Virus record (IMG/VR): IMGVR_UViG_2872185964_000011
Origin: a virus
Taxonomy: Duplodnaviria > Heunggongvirae > Uroviricota > Caudoviricetes
Strand: one strand, 5' to 3'
DNA length: 40,519 bases
Shown: piece after piece, positions 271 through 40,086 of the stretch
Numbering within the stretch: the first letter of the stretch is position 1
Layout: each line of letters starts with the position of its first letter
The notes under the pieces: generated by a model
The model's database searches: none
The model's input: the letters and a program-made list of their open reading frames with translations, nothing else
What the model was told of the DNA's origin: nothing
Translations under genes and position numbers: made by a program

Positions 271-579
271 TTACCGTTAAATCATTTTAAAATCAGTAAG
301 TTGTATCGAGTTTGTATGCTTTACTGTCATTAACTTACTGTATGTTGATCCAGTGTATTTAACCTTGATAAACTCAGTCCAGTAACACAAAGCCGCAACA
401 CATTGCATTTTGTCCCGTAGAAAAGACTTGTATGTGTGTGCTTGTTTTCTGCGCCTACGCAGATAAGGATTGAGAATGCCGCGCACTGTAACACATAATC
501 CGGATAGCCCCAATAATGACGATGTTTTAGCCGCATCTGAAAAATGGGACGCCTGTAAACCCCCTATACCAGCGCACAC

Positions 580-1872
580 ATGAAAATCTGTGTTGCTGCC
601 GCCAAAATCATCCTCGCTGCTTCCGGCGTGGCTCGCCGTTCCAAATACGAAAAAGAGAACTATCTCCGTATCGATTTCAGCAAAGCCGGTAAGGTTACAT
701 TTTACGCCGAGTTTCCAAAAAAGATGGGCCTCAAAGGTAAAAAGCTCGGCGAGTGGCCGGAGCTCGCTATCCAGCTGGCGCGCGAAAAAGCACTAGGTAT
801 GGCTGACGGTGGACTGCGGGCAGAGTCCGTACATGCAGCGCTGGAAATGTACCGGGATGACCTCAAAGCCAAAGTAGCCCGGCAGAAGCTGAGCCCGGAT
901 AGTTTCACAACCTACGGGGTGCGTATCGACCGGATTAAAGCAACGTTCGGCGAGCGCGAGGTGTTCAGCGACGTAACATACAGTCGGCTGGTGGAAGTGC
1001 TGGACGAGTGGATCTCCACTCGCTCGAACAATAACGCCCTGGAGTTGTTTGCCGAGCTCCGTCGGTTCTGGAAGTTCTGCGCACCTACTCTTTGCAACGG
1101 CCGCAATGTTGCCGCTAGTCTGCCAGATGATTATGTTTCCTCCCGCGTACAGAAACCTACCCCCACACGGCTTTTTACCGATATTGAATCAATCGCCCGA
1201 CTCTGGCTCAATGTTGCTGCCTGCACCTCTGTACACCAGAAGAATGCTGTTCGCTTCATGATCATCACTGGTGTTCGTCCGATTAATGTCCATAACCTGC
1301 GCTGGGACTACGTTCACGAGGAGACTGGCGAAATTGTTTATCCTGAAGGGGTTATCGGCATGCGAGGGGCTATGAAAACACAAAAGGCTTTCCGCCTGCC
1401 GATAACGCCTGAGATCCGGCGGATTATCGACGAGCAGAAAGCCTGGCGTGATTCAGTTCCTGAGTGCAACAGGGATTATGTATTTTTGCAGCCACGTGAT
1501 CCAATGCAGCCATTTTCAAAACGATCACTGGATAAGCTGGTGAAAACATACAGCCCGGACGGGGCTGTAAAAGGAATAAAACATGATGGGACTGTTAAAG
1601 GGAAAGACGGTGCATTTAATACGATGTGCCGTAAATTCCTTAAGAGCAATGTTATTGCCTTGATGAAGGAAAGAGGCTATTCCCGATCAGACCGAAGGGA
1701 AATCAGCCTCCTTTGCCTTCACCACTCCAGTAAGTCAGATGACCCGATGGCAGAACATTACGACTTTTCTGATGAGATTTTACAGGAAGAGATTGCGTTA
1801 AAGCGCGAAGCTTTCGAGGCTCACGAGCGGAGCATACTTGCGCAGGTGGCATTGCTACGGCGGCGAGGTTAA
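580..1872 (+). CDS. phage integrase, tyrosine recombinase (start uncertain; an in-frame GTG at 628 is an alternative)
   Basis: 430-aa ORF at prophage edge; C-terminal half has recombinase-like TGVRP, a Lys-containing hairpin region (GAMKTQKAFRLPI) and a C-terminal His/Tyr segment (LHHSSKSDDPMAEHYDF); N-terminus resembles arm-binding domain. Confidence 0.8.
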   Translation: MKICVAAAKIILAASGVARRSKYEKENYLRIDFSKAGKVTFYAEFPKKMGLKGKKLGEWPELAIQLAREKALGMADGGLRAESVHAALEMYRDDLKAKVARQKLSPDSFTTYGVRIDRIKATFGEREVFSDVTYSRLVEVLDEWISTRSNNNALELFAELRRFWKFCAPTLCNGRNVAASLPDDYVSSRVQKPTPTRLFTDIESIARLWLNVAACTSVHQKNAVRFMIITGVRPINVHNLRWDYVHEETGEIVYPEGVIGMRGAMKTQKAFRLPITPEIRRIIDEQKAWRDSVPECNRDYVFLQPRDPMQPFSKRSLDKLVKTYSPDGAVKGIKHDGTVKGKDGAFNTMCRKFLKSNVIALMKERGYSRSDRREISLLCLHHSSKSDDPMAEHYDFSDEILQEEIALKREAFEAHERSILAQVALLRRRG

Positions 1873-2069
1873 TACCGGCTGCGACACTTTTGAATAAAAG
1901 CGTCGACATTACGGCGCTCATAACGAACTACTTTTGCACTGAAACGAATTGGTGCCAGGATAGCCCGATGACGATGCTTAATATTCCACTCACATAGCGT
2001 TTTCTGTGTAATACCTAACTTTTGGCATACTTCATCCGGGGTGAGTAAATCGTCGGGTTTCTCGCTCAT
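1869..2069 (-). CDS. small HTH DNA-binding protein, excisionase/AlpA-like candidate
   Basis: 66-aa product MSEKPDDLLTPDEVCQKLGITQKTLCEWN... with HTH-like segment; ATG overlaps helicase stop (ATGA); adjacent and convergent to integrase. Confidence 0.55.
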   Translation of the reverse strand: MSEKPDDLLTPDEVCQKLGITQKTLCEWNIKHRHRAILAPIRFSAKVVRYERRNVDAFIQKCRSRY

Positions 2070-3459
2070 GCTATACCTCTCTTTTTCATGGCATTGAGCA
2101 GGATGTCCTGCACTGTTCGTTTTGAGTTGCGCCGCTCCATCACCATTTCGTCCATAGTGTCGGCGGCGATAATGTGGTGAATGAATACCGGGCGGTTGTG
2201 TCCGGCCTGAATCTGCCGGGTTGGCCCGATGCGTTCGATAATTTGTTGGTACTGCTCCAGATCCCACCAGTGCGAGAAAAACACCAGTATGTTTCCGCCG
2301 TCCTGCATGTTCAGGCCGTGGCCCGCGCTGGCTGGGTGTGCAAAGAGAACAGGAACCTTTCCTGAATTCCAGTCGCGCAGTGTCTGTGGATCCTGGTCGA
2401 GGTGACGACCGCGAGGGAATGCTTTAAGCAAGCGTTCAAGATCGTGTTTCCAGTGATAAGCAACCAGCACAGGTGCGCCAGCTGCTTCGGTCAGTATGCT
2501 GTCCAGCGCTTGTAGTTTGGTGTCATGCAGTTCTGACCAACTTCCGGTGTCGTCTGTGTATACTGCGCCACTGGCGATTTGCAGACATTTCAGTGTCTTT
2601 GCCGCGGCGTTCGGTGCTTCGATGCCTTCGCCATTCAGCTCGAGGAACATTTCCTTTTCCATTTCACGATACTGCTGACGGGCCTTCGGTGGCATATCCA
2701 CGCGGATTACGTTATGGATGGGGTCTTTGATATCGAACCAGTCGGCCGCATCCAGCGAGAGGGTTACATCGGCTAACGCTCGCTGTATTTCACCCTGTGA
2801 GTGAGCAAAAGGCTCCAGTTTGGTCCAGCTCTGCCCGGAAACTGTATCGAGTTGAACCAGCGTGAGGTAAACGCGCCGTAAGTGCGCCCGAGACGTTGCC
2901 CCTGGTCCACAAACCACGATTGTCCCCACAAATCTACCAGGCCGTTCGGTGCTGGCGTACCGGTGAGATTTATCCAGCGCCGGACATACTTATGCGCCAC
3001 TTTGCCCAGCGCCGCCGCGCGCTTACCACCACCGCGCAGCCGGAAGGATTTTAGCCGGGTGCTTTCATCTGGAATGACAGTACCGAACGGCCATCGTTCT
3101 CCCAATTCTTCAATCAGCCAGACAAGGTTATCGTAGTTGATGGTGAACACGCTTGCGTTGCTGTTCGTCAGCGCCATAGAGCGCGCTTTGGCATTACCAA
3201 TAATTGGCTGCACCTCGATATTGCGCAAATGTCCCCACTTCAGTGCTTCATCCGGCCATGTGCTGGCAGCCACGCGCAGCGGCGCGAGGACCAGTGCGGG
3301 GCATGTTTCTGCCCCTGCCATAAAGAGATCTTCCAGCGCAGTGAGCGTTGCCACGGTTTTACCCATTCCCATACCCGCCCAGATGTTGCCGCGCAGAATG
3401 TTAGTTTGGTGATTGATTATGAGGTTTTGATAAATTCTGGGGTGGAATATGCTATTCAT
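2066..3459 (-). CDS. SNF2-family DEAD/DEAH-box helicase, reading frame broken between about 2773 and 2929
   Basis: N-part has Walker A GMGMGKT and DEAH-box-like IPDEST; C-part continues in the -1 frame (LDTVSGQSWTKLEPF...); the two ORFs overlap by 157 nt. Confidence 0.75.
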
Positions 3460-3488
3460 TAATATACCTATGGTAGAATATGGTCACT

Positions 3489-3508
3489 TCTCTCTCTCTA
3501 TATATATA
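3489..3508 (+). repeat. dinucleotide repeat tract (TC)5(TA)5 just upstream of the RBS of the 3525 gene
   Basis: tctctctctc tatatatata read directly; GGAGG RBS at 3515-3519, ATG at 3525. Confidence 0.8.
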
Positions 3509-3524
3509 ACTAACGGAGGCGGGT

Positions 3525-4322
3525 ATGCCCCTGGCGAAAATATTTACAAAGCAAGTTTCTTTATTAACTATGTTTTCAGCGTTAGCTTATGCGATGGCAT
3601 ATTCTTTTCAGAAAGGTGTTGCATCGTATTATGGCTATCCAGACCTTTTTATTAAAATAGACTTAAATACGCTATTGTATTCGGCTGTGTGGCTTTTGTT
3701 TTTTAGTTTTTTATTTCTCGGCGCCTTATATGCGGCGTTGATGTTTGATTTGAAAGGGAAATATTATGTTCCATTTATTGTATTTATAGTTGTTATGCTA
3801 ATGGCTAATATTTGTATAATAGGATTTCATTGGCCTTTTGGTTATTTCTCCGAAACTTCTGTGATGAGTGTTCAGGATATTTTATTATTTGCTATGCTTT
3901 TGTTGAATTATCACAATGTGGTGTCCATGCCAATCCATAGTAAGAGACACGAACATCATATGGAGAGCATTAGAAAATTTGGGAGGCTTGCAGAGTATAA
4001 GAACGTATTTTATTATATCGATTTAAAAATCCTAAAGTCAGCTTTTCCTTTAGGGGTGATAACGTTGTTGATATTGAGCTATACATTCGGGAAGGTTACT
4101 GCATTTAAAAATAACGAATATTATATGGTAGATGGTAGTAATACTAAAGTGTTGCTCAATTCATTTGGTAGTGGTTTTGTTGTTGGTGATTGTGAGTCAA
4201 ATAGCGCAAAATTTGAATTTGTTAATGATTTAAAAGGGATGAGATTCACAATCATGTCCTCTAAAAAGGAAATAGCTAAATTAAAAGAGTGTTTCGAAAT
4301 ACGTGTTAAAAATACGGATTAA
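3525..4322 (+). CDS. hypothetical multi-pass membrane protein; AT-rich accessory gene antisense to the replication operon
   Basis: 265-aa ORF with strong RBS; about four hydrophobic helices in the N-terminal half, soluble C-terminal ~90 aa; visibly AT-rich compared with flanks; no family recognised. Confidence 0.6.
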   Translation: MPLAKIFTKQVSLLTMFSALAYAMAYSFQKGVASYYGYPDLFIKIDLNTLLYSAVWLLFFSFLFLGALYAALMFDLKGKYYVPFIVFIVVMLMANICIIGFHWPFGYFSETSVMSVQDILLFAMLLLNYHNVVSMPIHSKRHEHHMESIRKFGRLAEYKNVFYYIDLKILKSAFPLGVITLLILSYTFGKVTAFKNNEYYMVDGSNTKVLLNSFGSGFVVGDCESNSAKFEFVNDLKGMRFTIMSSKKEIAKLKECFEIRVKNTD

Positions 4323-4334
4323 AGCATAAGTCTT

Positions 4335-4547
4335 TTATCCTTTATTGCGGCTTAAAATAATGGCCTCCAGATTTTTGCTATCCAGCACCACTACGGTAAA
4401 GCCCAGCGCGCGCAACCGTCCGTGTTCGCGCAACTGGTCAGGCCGTGGTGGCTTGCCGGGGGATACGAACTTAAAGGCAACCCCGCCAGCCTTTTTTACT
4501 TCAGCGACGAGGTGCTTTTCGATTAGGTTTTCACGTTCATAGGCCAT
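4335..4547 (-). CDS. VRR-NUC domain protein, C-terminal part only in frame
   Basis: 70-aa ORF; segment AFKFVSPGKPPRPDQLREHGRLRALGFTVVVLDSKNLEAI resembles the C-terminal half of VRR-NUC nucleases; expected N-terminal PD motif region is not in this frame. Confidence 0.5.
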   Translation of the reverse strand: MAYERENLIEKHLVAEVKKAGGVAFKFVSPGKPPRPDQLREHGRLRALGFTVVVLDSKNLEAIILSRNKG

Positions 4548-4740
4548 TAGCTTTCGCCTTCCTGCTTTTTGCGTTTCTTCATGCAGATAGCGCAGTTCTC
4601 AGGATGGTCATGCCATTCATCAATCCTGATACCTATGAACATCCATTTTCCGCATAGTGATATGGCTTCCCCGAATTAAAGAAATGTGCTTTTTTTGACA
4701 GAGCGGGGAACCCCCAACCCTTATTATCGATATTAGACAT
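4547..4740 (-). CDS. small ORF with strong Shine-Dalgarno, frame-interrupted; either the 5' part of the VRR-NUC gene or a separate small Cys/His protein
   Basis: AAGGAGGTG then ATG at 4740; 35 codons to a TAG, then the -1 frame continues (...IDEWHDHPENCAICMKKRKKQEGES) to a TAA overlapping the VRR-NUC ATG. Confidence 0.25.
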
Positions 4741-4867
4741 CGTCCACCTCCTTACGCTTTTCGCGCATGTTCTGCATCAGACAAAAATCAAACCGACGTT
4801 CGCTTTGGCCCAGACCTGCATCGCCCGGTCGTACCCGCCGGACTGTTCAAGGTGCAAAGCCTCCCGC

Positions 4868-4892
4868 ACAGTCCGGTAATAAAGCGGACTGT
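4868..4892. promoter_or_regulatory. perfect 8-bp inverted repeat ACAGTCCG-9 nt-CGGACTGT in the intergenic region downstream of the TIR-like gene
   Basis: read directly; no adjoining T-tract, so more likely a protein-binding site or RNA structure than a terminator. Confidence 0.3.
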
Positions 4893-4927
4893 CCCGGTAT
4901 TTAAATGACATAGGGTTTTTATTCCCA

Positions 4928-4951
4928 AATAAAAAACCCCGCGATGCAGGG
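4928..4951 (-). terminator. rho-independent terminator candidate following the TIR-like gene
   Basis: on the minus strand CCCUGC-AUC-GCGGGG hairpin (one G-U pair) followed by UUUUUUAUUU. Confidence 0.5.
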
Positions 4952-4974
4952 TTGTAATCAACAATAAGGGGTAA

Positions 4975-5736
4975 TTACGAGGAAGCGTTAGCTATTTGAG
5001 CTTGTGTAAATTCGAAACCAGAATTTTGTAACCGTTGCACTAGACGAGGAACTGTTTCACGTACATGGTCGTTGAAATTCAGATACAAAATCCCGTTAGC
5101 ATCAGAAGGCTGTTCTAGGTGCTGTTTCTGAAGGATTGCTACATTGCTGCGCCCTAAGGACGAAAGAAGCATACCCATCTCGAGTACAACGTTCTGTCTT
5201 GCGCGGGGTTGGATTTCTGCTTCACCGGCGCGCTTTGAGTATCCCATATCATCAGGTGTCAAAAGAACAATCCCGAAACGGGTAGCAGTTTGTCCTTGCC
5301 CAATTTCACGTTCAAGCTCTTCAATAATGGTGAGTCCAGTCCCTCCCGTATTCTGCAAAATGAAATGGTCTGGTAATCCAAGTTTATGAAGGATTAGCTC
5401 AAGTTGCTCCTTTGCAGTATGGTCATGGCCGTGAACAATGAATATCTTTTTGGGGAGCTCAGATGGCTGTTCTACGGCTAGTGGTGTTGCCGTGGGCGGC
5501 GTTCCTAAATGGGTCATTATTGCAGTTTCAACATTGGGACGTTCTTGAGGGTTACCTTGAAACTGAATGGTCCGGGTGGTGTAAAGGTTAACAATTACGC
5601 CATTCGTTAAACGATAGCAGTCACAAGTCTCACGCTGTTCGTGGGAAAAATTGGTGAACCCACACTCCCTCAAAAAGTCAGGAAAAGTTTCTCTCGGGTA
5701 TGGATAGGTGATCGGCATTTCAGTTAGTTCCTGCAT
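4975..5736 (-). CDS. TIR-like domain protein: C-terminal TIR-like (predicted nucleotide-binding, NADase-type) domain fused to an N-terminal ~95-aa domain of unknown function
   Basis: C-terminal half KKIFIVHGHDH...GIVLLTPDDMGY...RARQNVVLEMGMLLSSLGRSNVAILQK...PSDANGILYL matches from memory the bacterial TIR-like family consensus including the conserved Glu; own RBS and downstream terminator. Confidence 0.6.
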   Translation of the reverse strand: MQELTEMPITYPYPRETFPDFLRECGFTNFSHEQRETCDCYRLTNGVIVNLYTTRTIQFQGNPQERPNVETAIMTHLGTPPTATPLAVEQPSELPKKIFIVHGHDHTAKEQLELILHKLGLPDHFILQNTGGTGLTIIEELEREIGQGQTATRFGIVLLTPDDMGYSKRAGEAEIQPRARQNVVLEMGMLLSSLGRSNVAILQKQHLEQPSDANGILYLNFNDHVRETVPRLVQRLQNSGFEFTQAQIANASS

Positions 5737-5800
5737 AAGTATTGTTCCTTTAATTTACTCGAATTCAGCATGTCGCCATAGCTCGATAAGGTGAGTTATA

Positions 5801-7864
5801 TCAATCTTTTTTGTAGTGGTACGCCTCAAAACCGCCAGCGTTCAGTGGGATATCGGGCGCCCATTCGGGGTCAGTGGAGAGAAGCGCGGAAAGCGCTTTA
5901 TCGTTGAAATCTTCTGTGTCAGGTGCTTCGGTGATCACCTCGTCGTGTACCGTCAGCACAATGCTGTAACCGGCATCTTCGATAAGCGGCATGTTTCCGG
6001 CCAGAATGTCGCGGGCGGCCGCCTGGGTGATGTTCTCCACCAGCTTTCCGCCGTAGGTTTTGAGTCGTTGCCATTTACGCGAATAAGAGTTAACCCCCAT
6101 GTAGGTGATATTCCCTTTTTCGATAACCGGAGACGGGTAGCATACAGCGCGTCCGGATGGTAGCTGTATGCGCAGCCACGCGCCATCGCGGCGGATTTTA
6201 AGATAACCGCAATACAATGTTTTTTGCGGTGTGGCGATTGCAGTGCGGACGGTGCGCTCCAGTTCGTACCAGAAATCACAGGTCGCGGGATGCGCCCGGC
6301 GCCAGAGACGTTTAAGTGAGTCGCAGGCGATAAATACCCGTTCAGAAAGCCCGTAGGTTGACTTGCGTTTAACCGATTCGTCGTACCAGCTTTTCGCCTC
6401 GCGGATAACATCGCGGGGAATGTTTGGTAGTGCGGCGTTCGCCAGCTCGTCGAGATCGAGACCGTAAACCAGTGCAAAAGTGATGAAGGCCGACACACCA
6501 CCACCATAACCCAGACCGAGTTCCATGACTTTACCGATCTGACGCATGTGTTTATCAACATCATCTGGTGCAATATCGAAAGCTTTTGCATACGCCAGTT
6601 TATATAAGTCCGGACCCGTTCCGGCGTCGTACTCTCTGAATGCATTCAGTTTCCATTCTTCTCCCGCCAGCCATGCCAGCATACGGCCTTCAATGTTCGA
6701 CAAGTCACTTACCACCAGCTTTTTGCCTGTTGGCGCGATAATGCAGCCACGTAACGCTGAACTGGTTAGTTCCATGATATTGTCAAACAGCAGGTCTGCA
6801 CATCCGGCTTTCAGTGCTTCGATGCCTTCGTCTATTTGTTCCTGTTTTAGTGAAGGGCGGGGAAGGTTCTGGGGCTGGAATAGCCGTCCGGCCCAACGAC
6901 CGGTACGTGACGCCCCGCAGAACTGTAGCGTACCGCGTAAGCGCCCGTCGTGGCTTACGCCTTTCATCAGTGCCTTGTATTTACTGGTGCTGGTAGTACT
7001 GGCCTGCAGGCGGATAGCCAGCAGTTCTTTCACGGCAGATGGTAAATCGGGGTCGGCAATACGACGTTCCAGAGTACTGCGTTGCATGTCTGGTAGCTCC
7101 ACACCGTAGGATTCAACAATGTGCTTAATCAACGCGTCTCGTTGTGTGGCTGCCTGCACTTCGCCATCAGTCATTTCCTGTGTACGCTTTGCCAGGCGCT
7201 TTTGTTCCTGGTCTACCGCGTCGATCGCAGCGCGTGCGAGTTCCACGTCCATGCAGACGCCCCGGTCATTGATCTGCTGATCACGATGCCAGAGCGCCAG
7301 TTCTGTCCCCTGATAATTCCACTTCGGCAGACGTTTATAGACTTCGCGCATTGCCTCGATATCCAGTCCGGCGTAAGCAACAAAGCGCCGCCATTCTTCC
7401 GGGTGGGTTTTGCTGGTGGCCCGGCGCAGTTTGCTGTTTTTCGGGCGTGGCTTACAGAACAGCTGGATCAGCGCTTTACCTTCTTTGTCCTTCGCTTTGT
7501 CTTGCGGGACGCCTAGTACTTCGCAGAGTTCCCCCAGAGACCCCGGGAGACCGTGCGCCAGCGCCTGCACCATTGTGTCGCGCCAACGTTCGACTGGCGG
7601 TGCCAGGCGCGGCATTGCATAACGCAGAACGGTGCGGTCGAAGTGAGAGTTATGGAAATAAAGCTGGGTTTCAGGGTCTGCGATTGCTTCGTATAAGCCG
7701 TGTGGAATACCACCACCGGCAGTGATATCCCACACGTTTACTGGCCCGTCGTTGATAGCCCATGCGAAAAGCATCACTTCAACGCCTTCGGCATACGCAT
7801 GGGTACCGTTCGTAATAGGGATTTCGCAATAGGTTTCCAGGTCGCCCCATAGTATATTGGACAT
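5801..7864 (-). CDS. family A DNA polymerase with N-terminal 3'-5' exonuclease domain
   Basis: 687 aa; exo motif [11 protein letters not shown]; polymerase motif [16 protein letters not shown], motif [17 protein letters not shown], motif C VHDEVI. Confidence 0.85.
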
Positions 7865-7910: not shown

Positions 7911-8540
7911 ATGCATATGATCCAATACTTGATTGACCATACAGAGCATCTGGAGAAAATAGCTGGATATATTTTTTCATGTTTGATTGTTATGGGAGTC
8001 TGGATAAGAAAGATCATTTTTAATTATAAGTATAAAGAGCCTAAATATGTCAAGAAGTTAATTTTATATTTAGTTAAGTATGAACGTTATCTGGATGAGG
8101 AGGATAAGAGTGCCATAGAAAAAAGAATAAATGATAAAATTATTCGTGATGCGCTGAAATTGCAATCCTCTTATAACCGAAGAGATGTTATTTACATTTG
8201 CAATAGATTAGAAAAAAGACAGTATATAAATCAGTTGATTAAGCTTCAGAATTATATAGAGAAAGATAACGGAGTGTTTTTTATTAATGTTGATTTTTCA
8301 GGTTTTTTATTTATTATTAGTCGTCTGTTTTCCTTTCTGTGTTTTGTGCTGTTTACCCTTTTTTCTATTATCTGCATTATTTCCATAGGGCAAAATGAAG
8401 GCCTTTTAAATTATCTTGTGTATATGGTTATGATAATAGTTTTAGAGACTGTTGGTTTTTGGATGTATGATACTTTCCCGTCTAAGAAAAAGATCTGTGA
8501 ACTAAATAAAGAATTGAGAAAGATTAAGATTCCTGAGTGA
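7911..8540 (+). CDS. hypothetical membrane protein; second AT-rich accessory gene antisense to the replication operon
   Basis: 209-aa ORF; one N-terminal and two C-terminal hydrophobic helices flanking a charged Lys/Glu-rich middle; very AT-rich; no family recognised. Confidence 0.55.
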   Translation: MHMIQYLIDHTEHLEKIAGYIFSCLIVMGVWIRKIIFNYKYKEPKYVKKLILYLVKYERYLDEEDKSAIEKRINDKIIRDALKLQSSYNRRDVIYICNRLEKRQYINQLIKLQNYIEKDNGVFFINVDFSGFLFIISRLFSFLCFVLFTLFSIICIISIGQNEGLLNYLVYMVMIIVLETVGFWMYDTFPSKKKICELNKELRKIKIPE

Positions 8541-13115: not shown

Positions 13116-15307
13116 ATGTCCGATAGCAAACCATGGGGAGCTACGCCTGATGAGTGGTTTCATTTCGACCTGGTATTGGGGAGAACTGATCATCTTCTGC
13201 CAGTTGTATGTAACCCCGGTGCGACCATATCCCCTGATAGTAAACTGAAAGCGCTGGGTAAGACGCCGAGTCGCTATAACCGGGACCGCCAGGTCACCGG
13301 TATTGCTCAATGGACCGGGCATGTTGTTACTGAGCATGATTTTGCCCGCTGGTCGAATGAACCGGATTATGGCATCTGCGTGCGTACAGGCCATGGCTGG
13401 CTGGCGCTGGACTGCGATAGCGAAGATGAAGACATTCAGGCAGATATTCGCAAAACACTTGTGCAACTTCTGGGTGAGTTGCCGCCGCGACGCTGGCGAG
13501 CAAACAGTAATAAGTGTCTGTATCTGCTGGCCGTTGATGGTGATTTCCGTAAGCGTATCCATCGCTTGGCGGGGATATGGGCATTATCGAGTTGCTGGCG
13601 AACGGGCAGCAGTTCGTTGCCTGTGGTACGCACAGCAGCGGCGCGCGTATTGAATGGGACGGCGGTCTGCCGGATGAACCTCCGGCTATTACTGGTGAGC
13701 AGCTTGAAACGCTGTGGCAGCGCCTGGCTGAACAACTCCCTGTGTCGGCAACCACCGAAGCGGGCAACACGAAGATGCGCGACCGTTCAGCATTCACGCC
13801 CGGCGCGACGGATGATACAGCTGAATATCTTGATGCCAATGGCTGGACGCTGCTGGATGGTGCAAACGGTGAACGATATATCCGCTGCCCGTTTGAAGAC
13901 GGCCACAGTAGCGGGGGCGATCCGACAAGCACAGTTTATTTTCCTGCGGGGACCGCGGGTTTTGAGCAGGGGCATTTTAAATGCCTGCATGCCAGTTGTG
14001 CGCATCGTGATGACGGAGATTTCCTTAATGCCATCGGGATCCGCAACGACGATTTCGAAGATCTGACCTGCACCGAAGTGGCGGAACCTTTACCGCTGCC
14101 GGCTTTCGAGCGTGATAAATGGGGGCGTATCGAGGCAACCATCAGCAACGCAGCCAAAGCAGTAGTACGCCCTGATTTTGTGGACATCGATATTCGCTTT
14201 GACCAGTTCCGCGACGAAATCATGTTTGCCCCTGCAGGATCCGGACAATGGCGGGCATTCACCGATGCGGATTATGCGCGCCTGCGCATCACGATGGAAA
14301 AGCGGGGATTTAAACCTGTTGGTCGTGAACTTATTCGCGATGTGGTGTTACTTGCAGCCGATGAACAACCATTCGATTCAGCGATCACTTGGCTGAACGG
14401 ACTGGAGTGGGATGGCGTGCCGCGCATCGAATGTTTCTACCATACGCACTTCGGTACCGCCGACACGCCTTATACCCGTGCGGTGTCTATGTACATGTGG
14501 ACCGCGTTGGCGGGGCGAGTACTGGAGCCAGGCATCAAAGCGGATATGGTGCCTATCCTCGTTGGTCCGCAGGGCTGCGGTAAGTCTTCCGGAGTGGAGG
14601 CACTGAGCCCTGATCCTGCGTTTTTTACTGAAATCTCTTTTGCCGAAAAAGACGATGATCTCGCTCGAAAAATGCGTGGTCGGCTGGTGGCAGAGATTGG
14701 TGAACTGCGCGGACTTAATACCAAAGAGCTGGAGTCAATCAAAGCGTTTGTGACGCGTACTCACGAAAACTGGATCCCGAAATACCGGGAGTTTGCCACC
14801 CAGTTTCCTCGTCGCCTGGTGTTCGTTGGTACCACCAATGAGGACGAATTCCTTGCGGACAAGACTGGTAACCGTCGCTGGCTCCCCGTGGAAGTGTCGA
14901 AAGTCGACGTGAAAGCGATAAAAAGAGATCTCCTTTTACTTTGGGCTGAGGCTCGTGAGGTGTTTCAGCGTCTGGGGGGTATCCAGTTCCGTGAGGCTGA
15001 ACAACTGGCAGCGAGTGTCCATGAACGGTACACCATCAAGGATGCTTGGCTTGAAACGGTAGAGAAATGGCTCGACACGCCCGACCTGATGACTAATGAA
15101 CTTCCGCGAAATTGCGAATTTTTACGCGCAAGTGATGTTTTGCGTGATGCGATTGGGCTAAATCCTGACCGCATCGGAAAACGCGAAGAAATGCGAATTA
15201 GTAATGTTTTGCAAAATTGCGGGTATAAGCGCGTTCAACGTCGTGTTGACGGAAAAATGACTCGAATTTTTGAGGCGGTGTCCCAACCTGTACCAGCTTC
15301 AAAATAG
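13116..15307 (+). CDS. replication initiation protein: primase-polymerase-like N-terminus plus VirE-like P-loop NTPase C-terminus; frame broken at G-run 13571-13574
   Basis: N-part with acidic LALDCDSEDED; C-part GPQGCGKSS Walker A and VFVGTTNEDEF Walker B-like; adding one G at 13571-13574 joins ...RKRIHRLAG to DMGIIELLANG... Confidence 0.75.
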
Positions 15308-15465
15308 AGGTTGGTACATTTTAACTAATTGAATTTAAAGGTCAGTACCAACTGTACCAACTGTACCAACCTAATTACTAAGAACCCCATATATATATAT
15401 ATAAGTCGCTTGGGGAAAAGGTTTGAAAAGAGCTGGTACAGGTGGGTACAGGCTGGTACAGGCCG
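15285..15465. repeat. array of eight GTAC-core repeats in two inverted tandem triplets flanking a (TA)7 tract; candidate replication origin iterons or regulator binding sites
   Basis: CTGTACCAAC-type units with GTAC cores at 15345/15354/15363, (TA)7 at 15390-15403, reverse-complement units CTGGTACAGG at 15436/15446/15456 spaced exactly 10 bp; extra copies at 15290 and 15314. Confidence 0.7.
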
Positions 15466-15590
15466 AACAAGGAATTTTTTGCACATAACAGCGTGTAATA
15501 AGCGAATCGGAACTGCGTTATCCACACCCACGGATAAACAAACGTGGTTCTCAGAAAATTTTTTCGTAGCAAAACGTAGAGGTCAGAGCT

Positions 15591-16025
15591 ATGCGTAATA
15601 TTCAACAGGTTTTAGAGCGCTGGGGTGGCTGGGCTGTCGATAGCAACACCACAGTGAGTTGGGCTCCAATAGCGGCGGGATTTAAGGGGCTGGTAGTCAG
15701 CAGCTCGCCTGGCAGGCTGAGTTGCTGCGACGATGATGGCCTGATTATCGATGCTTGCGTCTGTCGGCTGCAGCAGGTCCGTAAGCCTGAGGAACTGGAC
15801 GTCATTATGCTGTACTACGTCTACGGGTTAAGCAAACGTGAGATAGGGCGGCGGCGTCGCTGTTCTGAAGGATTTATCCGCCAGCAGTTGCAGGTAGCTG
15901 AGGGATTCATTGAGGGGTGTCTCTGCATGCTGGGTGTGAACCTTCAGATGGATCCTGAGGTCGAAATTCAAAGGGATGAAAAAAGTATTAGTGCGCTACG
16001 CAAAAACTGCGCTACGCTGGTATGA
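15591..16025 (+). CDS. late-gene antiterminator, Q-like (933W-type from memory)
   Basis: 144 aa starting MRNIQQVLERWGGWAVDSNTTVSWAPIAAGFKG with a CCDDDG motif; position directly upstream of lysis genes. Confidence 0.6.
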   Translation: MRNIQQVLERWGGWAVDSNTTVSWAPIAAGFKGLVVSSSPGRLSCCDDDGLIIDACVCRLQQVRKPEELDVIMLYYVYGLSKREIGRRRRCSEGFIRQQLQVAEGFIEGCLCMLGVNLQMDPEVEIQRDEKSISALRKNCATLV

Positions 16026-39403: not shown

Positions 39404-40051
39404 CTATGAAGCTAATTTGTTTAATTTCATTTGTAGCGACTTTACTTCTTGGTCGATAATGTTGAATCCCTTATTGACTGCATCTCTTAGTTCTGCATCA
39501 ATATTTTTTATCCCTTGAGCATAATCTACCATTACATCTATTTTTTCATCATGTAATCTCTTATACATGGTTTTATCTTTGTTATTGTCAGCCATACCAA
39601 TAAGTATTTTTTCATAATCCTCAATGAGTTTGTTGTTTCCTTTAAATGATTGTATTAATGACCGTGAATATGTGTAGATATTAATTATTGAGTCTCTGGC
39701 AGAATCATTTAGTTTTGCAATGACATTCGCATTTTGCTCATAGAATGTGAAATTATCATCCCCTACAGGGAAAGTGAGAATTAATATCTGTCCGGGTTTG
39801 ATATTATCAATGTGTGTTTTCATCCTTTTATTATATAAATTGATTAGGGTGAAAACTTCTCCCTTAACACCTTTTAATACTGAAAGTTGCAATTCAAGGG
39901 ATTCTCTTTCTGTCTCTACTTTAGACAGCTTAGCTTGTTGGGTAACTCCTTTTAGGGTAAACCATCCGCCAATAAGAGTACCAACTAGAGCTGTGAGGGA
40001 GGAGGATAACCATCCAGGAATGCTATTTAAAAAATTACTAAATTCACTCAT
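39404..40051 (-). CDS. hypothetical membrane-anchored protein; cargo gene at the right end
   Basis: 215 aa; N-terminal hydrophobic helix (LSSSLTALVGTLIGGWFTL), then helical and globular segments; AT-rich; no family recognised. Confidence 0.55.
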   Translation of the reverse strand: MSEFSNFLNSIPGWLSSSLTALVGTLIGGWFTLKGVTQQAKLSKVETERESLELQLSVLKGVKGEVFTLINLYNKRMKTHIDNIKPGQILILTFPVGDDNFTFYEQNANVIAKLNDSARDSIINIYTYSRSLIQSFKGNNKLIEDYEKILIGMADNNKDKTMYKRLHDEKIDVMVDYAQGIKNIDAELRDAVNKGFNIIDQEVKSLQMKLNKLAS

Positions 40052-40076: not shown

Positions 40077-40086
40077 ATATATATAT
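40077..40086. repeat. (AT)5 dinucleotide repeat 26-35 nt upstream of the 39404-40051 gene start
   Basis: atatatatat read directly. Confidence 0.7.

What the first reader, a model, noticed from the sequence alone, without database searches (positions are those of the whole stretch)
3460..4322. AT-rich antisense membrane-protein gene with a (TC)5(TA)5 repeat tract at its 5' end
A 265-aa multi-pass membrane protein is encoded on the opposite strand between the helicase and VRR-NUC genes, in markedly AT-rich DNA typical of acquired morons. A simple-sequence tract (TC)5(TA)5 at 3489-3508 ends 6 nt before its RBS; such tracts can change length by slipped-strand mispairing and switch expression. Candidate superinfection-exclusion, abortive-infection or lysogenic-conversion gene; it may act together with the TIR-like gene two genes away.
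Basis: partly seen in the sequence, partly recalled or inferred. Interest (0 to 1): 0.6.

Follow-up and report, generated by a model that had tools for sequence, protein, structure and literature searches.

The report
Prophage membrane-protein moron with variable leader repeat
An AT-rich, separately acquired prophage gene encodes an uncharacterised five-helix inner-membrane protein, and the dinucleotide repeat in front of it does change length between strains, but it lies in the mRNA leader, where it is unlikely to switch the gene on and off.

Summary
ORF 3525-4322 (+) encodes 265 aa at about 32% GC between minus-strand helicase and VRR-NUC genes at about 55% GC. (TC)5(TA)5 lies at 3489-3508, 6 nt before GGAGG.

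The gene is a single-gene cargo cassette (3460-4334) in a variable slot of a decaying prophage. Only 17 of 131 E. coli genomes with the flanks carry it, and other cargo fills the slot elsewhere. Homologues also sit in a lambdoid prophage and in small chromosomal islands.

The protein is under purifying selection (dN/dS 0.1-0.26). It models confidently (pLDDT 89) as five membrane helices plus a small domain carrying two conserved cysteines, inferred to be periplasmic. It belongs to Pfam PF27470 "TfpB", has no solved or viral structural relative and matches no known defence model.

The repeat is hypermutable: nine alleles, (TC)4-5(TA)3-9, in 27 sequences, some with identical flanks. However, a conserved extended -10 promoter (TGgTAGAAT, 3471-3479) lies upstream of it. 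Repeat-free orthologues keep that promoter. The repeat changes neither reading frame, promoter spacing, SD-ATG spacing nor the predicted RBS hairpin.

Verdict: a real moron and a real microsatellite. An on/off switch is unsupported, linkage to the TIR gene is refuted, and the exclusion or defence function is inferred only.

The parts
3460..4334 (.). Cargo cassette (moron): promoter, leader with microsatellite, and ORF. It fills the whole gap between the helicase start codon and the VRR-NUC stop codon.
   Evidence: Homology with relatives carrying other cargo (DUF6338, a 108-aa ORF, Rha/Arc genes) stops at the helicase start codon on the left and at the VRR-NUC stop on the right. GC is 0.32-0.36 against about 0.55 in the flanks.
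3471..3479 (+). Predicted extended -10 promoter TGgTAGAAT. The transcription start is inferred near 3485-3488.
   Evidence: Invariant in all E. coli-type loci. The same motif class TGnTA(G/T/A)(A/T)AT lies 40-45 nt before the ATG in repeat-free relatives: Raoultella, the P0007 lineage, an Enterobacter lambdoid prophage, and the Klebsiella and Enterobacter paralogues. Chance is about 0.02 per 70 nt. The tool's -35-dependent scan finds nothing here. No transcript data.
3489..3498 (+). (TC)5 half of the compound microsatellite. Relatives have 4 or 5 units.
3499..3508 (+). (TA)5 half of the compound microsatellite. Relatives have 3 to 9 units.
3515..3519 (+). Shine-Dalgarno GGAGG, 5 nt before the ATG.
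   Evidence: Read from the sequence. Invariant in the E. coli loci.
3514..3533 (+). Predicted local RNA hairpin pairing the SD with codons 2-3, with the AUG partly in the stem. It accounts for most of the about -8.5 kcal/mol predicted for the leader.
   Evidence: RNAfold of eight tract alleles gives the same hairpin in each, with the four G of the SD unpaired with probability 0.1 or less. Prediction only.
3525..4322 (+). ORF for the 265-aa TfpB-family (PF27470) inner-membrane protein.
   Evidence: dN/dS is 0.08-0.26 against orthologues. AlphaFold2 pLDDT is 89.
3609..3668 (+). Residues 29-48: the most conserved motif of the family (FQ.G.A.YYGYP..FI..DLN), in the loop predicted to face the periplasm.
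   Evidence: Alignments A6-A9. The loop is poor in K+R and rich in D+E across the family.
4086..4319 (+). Residues 188-265: C-terminal beta/alpha domain with nearly invariant G189, C223 (4191-4193) and C256 (4290-4292). Predicted to be periplasmic, with a possible disulfide.
   Evidence: The disulfide is inferred, not shown.
4125..4138 (+). (ATGGTAG)2 direct repeat inside the ORF. Strain JNEC-KY180 has a third copy, which frameshifts the gene (annotated CDS 206 aa).
2773..3459 (-). Left flank: N-terminal fragment of the SNF2-type helicase. The gene is split here (second ORF 2066-2929) but is an intact 464 aa in relatives.
4335..4547 (-). Right flank: VRR-NUC gene, convergent with the ORF (12 nt between the stop codons). 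It is 70 aa here and 95 aa in relatives, because of a 75-bp in-frame deletion.

Best explanation
A horizontally acquired single-gene cassette (moron) sits in a variable cargo slot of a decaying prophage's early operon. It is most likely transcribed from its own extended -10 promoter (3471-3479), independently of and antisense to the phage early genes, and so is probably expressed in the lysogen.

Its product is an inner-membrane protein with five transmembrane helices, N-terminus inside and C-terminus outside. The two conserved elements, the YYGYP..FI..DLN loop and a C-terminal two-cysteine domain, both face the periplasm. It belongs to the uncharacterised Pfam family PF27470 'TfpB'.

The most likely role, which is inferred, is an envelope-level function that benefits the lysogen. 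The leading candidate is superinfection exclusion or defence acting at the inner membrane or periplasm.

The (TC)n(TA)n tract is a true slippage-prone microsatellite that arose only in the E. coli/Shigella lineage, within the first about 25 nt of the mRNA leader. It is polymorphic but is not placed to act as an on/off switch. It is probably neutral, or at most tunes expression level.
For: Shown:
- GC contrast between cassette and flanks.
- Cassette boundaries, and alternative cargo in the same slot.
- The cassette is in 17 of the 131 E. coli genomes that match the flanks.
- Homologues occur in the same slot of prophages at other attachment sites, in a lambdoid prophage between dinI and the P-like gene, and as solitary genes next to proA.
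- There are no pilin genes or fixed partner genes in any of these contexts.
- Purifying selection, with dN/dS 0.08-0.26.
- A confident five-helix plus beta-domain model.
- A K+R bias that fits N-in, C-out.
- Conserved G189, C223 and C256.
- PF27470 hits for the exact protein (weak) and for its relatives.
- The extended -10 motif is conserved in all lineages examined but one, with or without the repeat.
- Nine tract alleles, some on identical flanks.
- The predicted RBS hairpin does not depend on the allele.

Inferred: expression in the lysogen, the periplasmic disulfide, and the exclusion or defence role.
Against: - There are no transcript data, so the promoter and the transcription start are predictions. 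The tool's -35-dependent scan found no promoter in the intergenic region.
- No terminator was found after the ORF.
- AT-rich foreign genes in E. coli are often silenced, which could mean little expression.
- Repeats in 5'UTRs are known to tune expression in other bacteria (own knowledge: Moraxella catarrhalis uspA2), so 'neutral' is not proven.
Confidence: 0.6

Rival explanations
1. Contingency (phase-variable) locus. Tract length sets the spacing of a promoter whose -10 lies in the TA tract (TATAAC, 3505-3510) and whose -35 is TGGTCA (3481-3486), so slippage turns the gene on and off.
For: The tract is truly hypermutable in 2-nt steps. In alleles with an 18- or 20-nt tract, a TGGTCA-16/18-TATAAC arrangement scores almost as well as the upstream promoter, and it is lost in longer or shorter alleles.
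Against: - That -10 ends 14 nt before the ATG, so transcription would start within or after the SD and give an mRNA without a ribosome-binding site.
- TATAAC lacks the conserved final T.
- The -35-like hexamer is not conserved in the XH993-type clade, which reads TGTCAA.
- Repeat-free orthologues and paralogues all keep the upstream extended -10 at 40-45 nt from the ATG.
- The tracts are short (3-9 units) compared with classical dinucleotide switches.
Confidence: 0.1
2. Expression 'volume control'. The leader repeat does not switch the gene but grades mRNA stability or translation with its length, giving heritable and reversible expression variants on which selection can act.
For: The leader varies from about 33 to 47 nt between alleles. 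The longest allele, (TA)9, is predicted to form an extra self-paired UA hairpin and to raise SD accessibility slightly. There is precedent for 5'UTR repeats tuning expression in other species (own knowledge).
Against: The predicted RBS structure is essentially unchanged in seven of the eight alleles folded. Orthologues function without any repeat. No expression data exist.
Confidence: 0.2
3. The protein is a pilus or pseudopilus accessory factor, as the Pfam name TfpB and the TfpY/FimB-like proteins suggest. It would modulate type IV pilus or type II secretion dynamics in the lysogen, rather than being an exclusion or defence protein.
For: Precomputed PF27470 'TfpB' hits. The size and general plan (polytopic N-terminal part plus periplasmic C-terminal beta domain, about 235-265 aa) resemble the TfpY-like proteins described in PMC11841053.
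Against: None of the genomic contexts examined contains pilin or pilus genes. The model has five membrane helices and one small sheet, not the three helices and two sheets described for TfpY-like proteins. What PF27470 is based on could not be checked, because the local Pfam copy lacks it.
Confidence: 0.1
4. Two-gene system with the nearby TIR-domain gene (4975-5736), with the membrane protein acting as its sensor or effector partner.
For: The two genes are close together in this window and in the IAI1-type prophages. The TIR protein matches the PADLOC candidate PDC-S35.
Against: The two genes assort independently. The cassette occurs with an ATP-binding protein or YfbU in place of TIR. TIR occurs with DUF6338 in place of this gene. 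Homologues have no TIR neighbour. Two other genes and opposite strands separate the pair.
Confidence: 0.04

Closest known systems
Pfam PF27470 'TfpB' (uncharacterised membrane-protein family)
   Same: The exact window protein carries a precomputed weak hit, and its relatives (63% down to about 21% identity) carry unmarked hits. An exhaustive HMMER search links them all: 45 representatives at E below 1e-3, sharing the N-terminal YYGYP motif and the C-terminal Cys motifs.
   Different: The family has no demonstrated function, and the local Pfam copy lacks the model. The name suggests a link to type IV pilus loci. From memory only, tfpB is an ORF in the Moraxella pilin inversion region. No pilin genes adjoin any member examined here.
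TfpY/TfpZ/FimB-like pilin accessory proteins (Qaderi et al. 2025, PMC11841053)
   Same: Small (235-245 aa) inner-membrane proteins with a short cytoplasmic N-terminus, an N-terminal helical membrane part and a periplasmic C-terminal beta-containing domain. Their function is also poorly understood.
   Different: They have three transmembrane helices and two beta-sheets, and are encoded next to the major pilin. The protein here has five helices, one small sheet and a terminal helix, and is prophage or island cargo with no pilin neighbour. Sequence homology could not be tested.
Prophage morons encoding inner-membrane superinfection-exclusion proteins (own knowledge: P22 SieA, T4 Imm, HK97 gp15, lambda RexB)
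   Same: A small membrane protein encoded by a (pro)phage, which for the temperate-phage examples (not T4 Imm) sits outside the lytic operon logic. Here it has its own promoter, atypical GC and patchy distribution among related prophages.
   Different: No sequence or fold similarity to any of them, or to any PADLOC, PHROG or BFVD entry. No phenotype is known.
Simple-sequence contingency loci (own knowledge: the Haemophilus influenzae hifA/hifB (TA)n promoter spacer, and the Moraxella catarrhalis uspA2 (AGAT)n 5'UTR repeat)
   Same: A dinucleotide tract immediately upstream of a surface or envelope gene, with length polymorphism between near-identical strains.
   Different: The tract is not between -35 and -10 and is not in the ORF. 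It is short (3-9 units) and absent from orthologues in other genera. At most it resembles the uspA2 type of graded 5'UTR effect.

Membership tests
Pfam PF27470 (TfpB) | Significant match to the family HMM | tested here: met
   Precomputed hits: weak (1e-5 < E <= 1e-3) for the exact window protein, and unmarked (E <= 1e-5) for P0005, P0060 and P0009. P0009 matches the window protein by phmmer at 4e-25. The model itself is not in the local Pfam copy, so the score could not be recomputed.
Pfam PF27470 (TfpB) | Association with type IV pilin genes (implied by the name; recalled from memory for Moraxella tfpB) | tested here: not met
   No pilin or pilus genes lie within 6-7 kb in any of the prophage or island contexts examined.
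TfpY/FimB-like pilin accessory proteins | Three N-terminal transmembrane helices plus a periplasmic domain with a mixed and an antiparallel three-stranded sheet (PMC11841053) | tested here: not met
   The model has five long helices, then strands at 200-202, 208-213, 218-224, 227-233 and 241-243, then a terminal helix (compared).
TfpY/FimB-like pilin accessory proteins | Sequence homology to TfpY, TfpZ or FimB | not testable with these tools
Moron (prophage accessory cassette) | Base composition unlike the surrounding prophage | tested here: met
   GC is 0.32-0.36 against 0.54-0.58. The same contrast is seen in relatives, with gene 0.32-0.35 and flank 0.53-0.58, except for one AT-poor island flank at 0.42.
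Moron (prophage accessory cassette) | Present or absent, or replaced, among otherwise related prophages | tested here: met
   17 of 131 E. coli genomes with the flanks carry it. DUF6338, a 108-aa ORF or Rha/Arc genes occupy the slot in others.
Moron (prophage accessory cassette) | Own promoter and terminator | tested here: inconclusive
   A conserved extended -10 motif is present. No intrinsic terminator was found after the ORF. No transcript data.
SSR contingency (phase-variable) locus | Hypermutable repeat: length differs among near-identical genomes | tested here: met
   Nine alleles, (TC)4-5(TA)3-9, in 27 sequences. Several pairs have 0 differences over about 1.1 kb of flank but different tracts.
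SSR contingency (phase-variable) locus | Repeat placed so that unit changes toggle expression (in the ORF, or in or overlapping the core promoter) | tested here: not met
   The tract lies between the conserved extended -10 and the SD, in the 5'UTR. The predicted RBS hairpin does not depend on the allele.
SSR contingency (phase-variable) locus | Within-population switching with an expression phenotype | not testable with these tools
   No read-level or expression data were available.
Known superinfection-exclusion or anti-phage defence proteins | Sequence or fold similarity to a described system | tested here: not met
Two-gene system with the TIR (PDC-S35) gene | Co-inheritance of the two genes | tested here: not met
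   Each gene occurs without the other.

The most novel reading that the evidence does not exclude
The compound (TC)n(TA)n leader repeat is a real contingency element in E. coli/Shigella, a species group in which simple-sequence switching is very rare. It would reversibly tune a lysogen-expressed, prophage-encoded periplasm-facing membrane protein of a new fold, one that excludes superinfecting phages or other incoming DNA. The in-ORF (ATGGTAG)2-3 repeat would give a second, frame-shifting switch.
Probability: 0.12. Interest if true: 0.65.

Novelty: new member of a known kind. Interest (0 to 1): 0.35.

Why it matters
- It gives a concrete, testable candidate for an uncharacterised single-gene envelope function. 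The gene recurs in one cargo slot of an Enterobacterales prophage family, with versions as low as about 21% identical in that slot, and no solved or viral structural relative was detected.
- It documents an unusually polymorphic dinucleotide microsatellite in E. coli, and shows from anatomy and comparison that polymorphism alone does not make a switch.
- If the protein proves to block phage entry, it would add a new family to prophage-encoded exclusion systems. It would also give a function to Pfam PF27470.

Tried and rejected
- Local Pfam, NCBIfam and PADLOC scans of the protein found nothing, and PHROGs gave only a marginal hit.
- tblastn against 50,697 phage records and 72,556 plasmids found no match.
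- The first AlphaFold2 run, with 8 close sequences, was poor (pLDDT 47). It was replaced by the 53-sequence run.
- A profile search of PDB sequences returned only hydrophobic noise.
- Literature searches for TfpB, PF27470 and Moraxella tfpB did not show what the Pfam family is based on. In Acinetobacter, 'TfpB' names an unrelated PilB-like motor (title).
- The search for related loci failed with the broad alignment. With a narrower one it found a single MAG locus.
- The two profile runs of the search for homologous proteins were limited by the word index and added few members and no informative names.
- The idea that the (UC)n tract pairs with the SD as an anti-SD was rejected. Folding pairs the SD with codons 2-3 instead, in every allele folded.
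- The idea that the tract marks the recombination junction of the cassette was rejected. The junction is at the helicase start codon, 30 nt upstream.
- No convincing minus-strand promoter for the helicase was seen in the tract, either by eye or in the scan.

Full report
**1. Observation**

The coordinates and description hold. ORF 3525-4322 (+) encodes 265 aa. It lies between minus-strand ORFs for an SNF2-type helicase fragment (2773-3459) and a VRR-NUC nuclease (4335-4547).

GC falls to 0.32-0.36 over 3451-4350, against 0.54-0.58 in the helicase. (TC)5 is 3489-3498 and (TA)5 is 3499-3508. GGAGG follows after 6 nt, at 3515-3519, and the ATG is at 3525.

Dinucleotide runs of at least 5 units are rare. 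The window has four, against 0.3 expected from a first-order Markov model, and two of them abut here. A model with the cassette's own composition expects 0.026 per cassette.

The window stretch 525-7322 is identical to CP026872.1 positions 4133217-4140014.

**2. The gene is cargo in a variable slot**

Among 5,426 complete E. coli genomes, 131 match the flanking helicase or VRR-NUC sequence, but only 17 carry the cassette. In other relatives the same gap holds different cargo:
- a DUF6338 protein plus a small ORF
- a 108-aa ORF
- Rha/Arc regulator genes

Alignments show that homology stops exactly at the helicase start codon and at the VRR-NUC stop. The cassette is therefore 3460-4334 and includes its own upstream region.

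Orthologues and paralogues turn up in several settings:
- Orthologues (85% and 57% identity) and distant paralogues (about 21-25% identity) occupy the same helicase|VRR-NUC slot in prophages of Raoultella and Klebsiella aerogenes and in prophages on metagenome-derived contigs, at three attachment sites.
- A 63%-identical homologue lies in an Enterobacter lambdoid prophage, between dinI and the lambda-P-like gene.
- Other homologues are solitary genes next to proA in Serratia and Enterobacter.

In every case the gene is AT-rich (0.32-0.35), usually in GC-richer DNA, and it has no constant partner gene.

The host prophage here is decaying. Its helicase is split into two ORFs, VRR-NUC has a 75-bp in-frame deletion, and the integrase is 430 aa rather than 465 aa.

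**3. The protein**

It is a real, constrained gene. dN/dS is 0.08-0.26 against E. coli and Raoultella orthologues.

An exhaustive HMMER search finds 45 cluster representatives at E below 1e-3. Those that carry names are all 'hypothetical', and all come from Enterobacterales: Serratia, Yersinia, Enterobacter and Izhakiella.

The family shares three features:
- an N-terminal motif Y..AY.FQ.G.A.YYGYP..FI..DLN
- a nearly invariant G189
- a C-terminal LL.S.G...V.G.C ... K.CF signature containing two conserved cysteines (C223, C256)

With a 53-sequence alignment, AlphaFold2 gives pLDDT 89 and pTM 0.85. The model has helices at 13-36, 47-76, 81-99, 116-152 and 167-195, then a five-strand unit and a terminal helix.

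Family-wide K+R counts are high in the N-terminus, loop 2 and loop 4. They are low in loop 1 and loop 3. This supports an N-in, C-out topology. The conserved loop and the cysteine-bearing C-terminal domain would then both face the periplasm. This is an inference, and a disulfide is plausible but not shown.

No solved or viral structure resembles the model, and no PDB sequence relative exists.

The only family label comes from precomputed Pfam hits to PF27470 'TfpB'. The hit is weak for this protein and firm for its relatives. The local Pfam copy lacks that model, and I could not establish what the family is based on.

The TfpY/FimB-like pilin accessory proteins (PMC11841053) have a similar size and general plan. 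However, they have three membrane helices and two sheets and sit beside pilin genes. Neither is true here.

**4. The repeat and the promoter**

In 27 sequences of the E. coli type (17 complete genomes, 8 assemblies encoding the identical protein, the window and 1 metagenome contig) the tract has nine alleles:

| (TC) units | (TA) units seen |
|---|---|
| 4 | 3, 4, 5, 6, 7 |
| 5 | 5, 6, 7, 9 |

Several pairs with zero differences across about 1.1 kb of flank carry different alleles. The tract is thus by far the most mutable site of the locus, and the changes are whole dinucleotide units, as expected for slippage.

Position argues against a switch:
- Immediately upstream lies TGgTAGAAT (3471-3479), an extended -10 element that is invariant in all these loci.
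- The Raoultella orthologue and the 57%-identity lineage keep the same element at the same place, but have a non-repetitive leader.
- The lambdoid-prophage homologue and the Klebsiella and Enterobacter paralogues have TGaTAAAAT, TGcTATTAT or TGtTATTAT, 41-43 nt before their ATG.
- The chance of such a motif is about 0.02 per 70 nt.

The inferred transcription start is near 3486, so the tract occupies roughly +3 to +22 of the leader. Its expansions have simply lengthened the leader from about 26-31 nt in the repeat-free relatives to about 33-47 nt.

The tract does not change frame, -35/-10 spacing or SD-ATG spacing. RNA folding of eight alleles gives the same local hairpin that pairs the SD with codons 2-3. 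Only the (TA)9 allele adds a weak UA self-hairpin.

An alternative tract-spanning promoter (TGGTCA-16/18-TATAAC) exists in some alleles. It would start transcription in or after the SD, and its -35 is not conserved.

I conclude that the tract is a lineage-specific hypermutable leader microsatellite. It is probably neutral or at most a modest tuner. A graded effect cannot be excluded without reporters.

**5. Link to the TIR gene**

The TIR protein (4975-5736) matches the PADLOC candidate PDC-S35. The two genes are not co-inherited:
- Cassette-bearing prophages of the XH993 type carry an ATP-binding protein, or YfbU, where TIR would be.
- A TIR-bearing prophage carries DUF6338 in place of this gene.
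- Homologues elsewhere have no TIR neighbour.

The early region has at least three independent cargo slots: helicase|VRR-NUC, VRR-NUC|DNA polymerase, and DNA polymerase|ssDNA-binding protein.

**6. Mechanism and verdict**

Shown:
- a mobile single-gene cassette
- a constrained five-helix membrane protein of an uncharacterised family
- a hypermutable repeat that sits between the conserved -10 motif and the SD

Inferred:
- transcription from its own extended -10 promoter, so that the repeat lies in the leader, with expression in the lysogen
- a periplasm-facing activity
- a role in superinfection exclusion or another envelope-level benefit to the lysogen

The exclusion or defence role rests only on context. 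It has no homology support, and I give it roughly 0.35-0.4 on its own. The on/off switch reading gets about 0.1. Partnership with the TIR gene is essentially refuted.

The finding is a sound but fairly ordinary moron, with an unusual though probably inconsequential microsatellite.

Noticed in passing
window 2066-3459 (-): The SNF2-type helicase is split into two overlapping ORFs (2066-2929 and 2773-3459). Relatives have one intact 464-aa gene, so this is a frameshift pseudogene.
   Followed up: partly
window 4335-4547 (-), deletion point near 4456: VRR-NUC is 70 aa here and 95 aa in relatives. A 75-bp in-frame deletion lies between two copies of CCGGGGGAT, consistent with a slippage or recombination deletion.
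   Followed up: partly
window 580-1872 (+): The integrase ORF is 430 aa here and 465 aa in relatives, a further sign that this prophage is decaying. Window stretch 525-7322 is an exact match to CP026872.1 4133217-4140014.
   Followed up: partly
window 15340-15470: An intergenic (AT)7 at 15389-15402 is flanked by three direct CTGTACCAA-type repeats on the left and three inverted copies (GGTACAG) on the right. It lies between a VapE-like primase/helicase gene (13577-15307) and an antiterminator Q gene (15591-16025). The layout looks like a replication origin or an operator array.
   Followed up: partly
window 7911-8540 (+): A second AT-rich (GC about 0.29) opposite-strand ORF (209 aa, hydrophobic C-terminal half, phrog_10579, no Pfam, PADLOC or significant NCBIfam match). 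It lies between the DNA polymerase and the Enc34-type ssDNA-binding gene. That slot holds different cargo in relatives (Nmad5, Band_7, TerB-like and others).
   Followed up: partly
window 4975-5736 (-): The TIR-domain protein is a full-length match to the PADLOC candidate system PDC-S35 (E 7e-109) and to Pfam CAP12-PCTIR_TIR. Its slot holds an ATP-binding protein, YfbU, a dATP/dGTP pyrophosphohydrolase or DUF551 in relatives.
   Followed up: partly
L006 (E. coli JNEC-KY180), corresponding to window 4125-4138: The in-ORF heptamer repeat (ATGGTAG)2 has a third copy in this strain. This frameshifts the membrane-protein gene and removes most of the C-terminal domain. It is a second slippage-prone site in the same gene.
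   Followed up: yes
L040-L043 (Klebsiella aerogenes), gene at 7001-7714: A TfpB-family paralogue only about 21% identical to the window protein occupies the same helicase|VRR-NUC slot of a related prophage, inserted at the same ferredoxin (yfhL-like) site. The slot has held very divergent versions of this family.
   Followed up: partly
window 40077-40086: Another (AT)5 dinucleotide run, just downstream of the start of minus-strand ORF 39404-40051. Not examined.
   Followed up: no
window 4323-4334: Only 12 nt separate the convergent stop codons of the membrane-protein ORF and VRR-NUC, and no terminator was detected. Moron transcripts would run antisense into the phage early operon, with possible transcriptional interference.
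   Followed up: no
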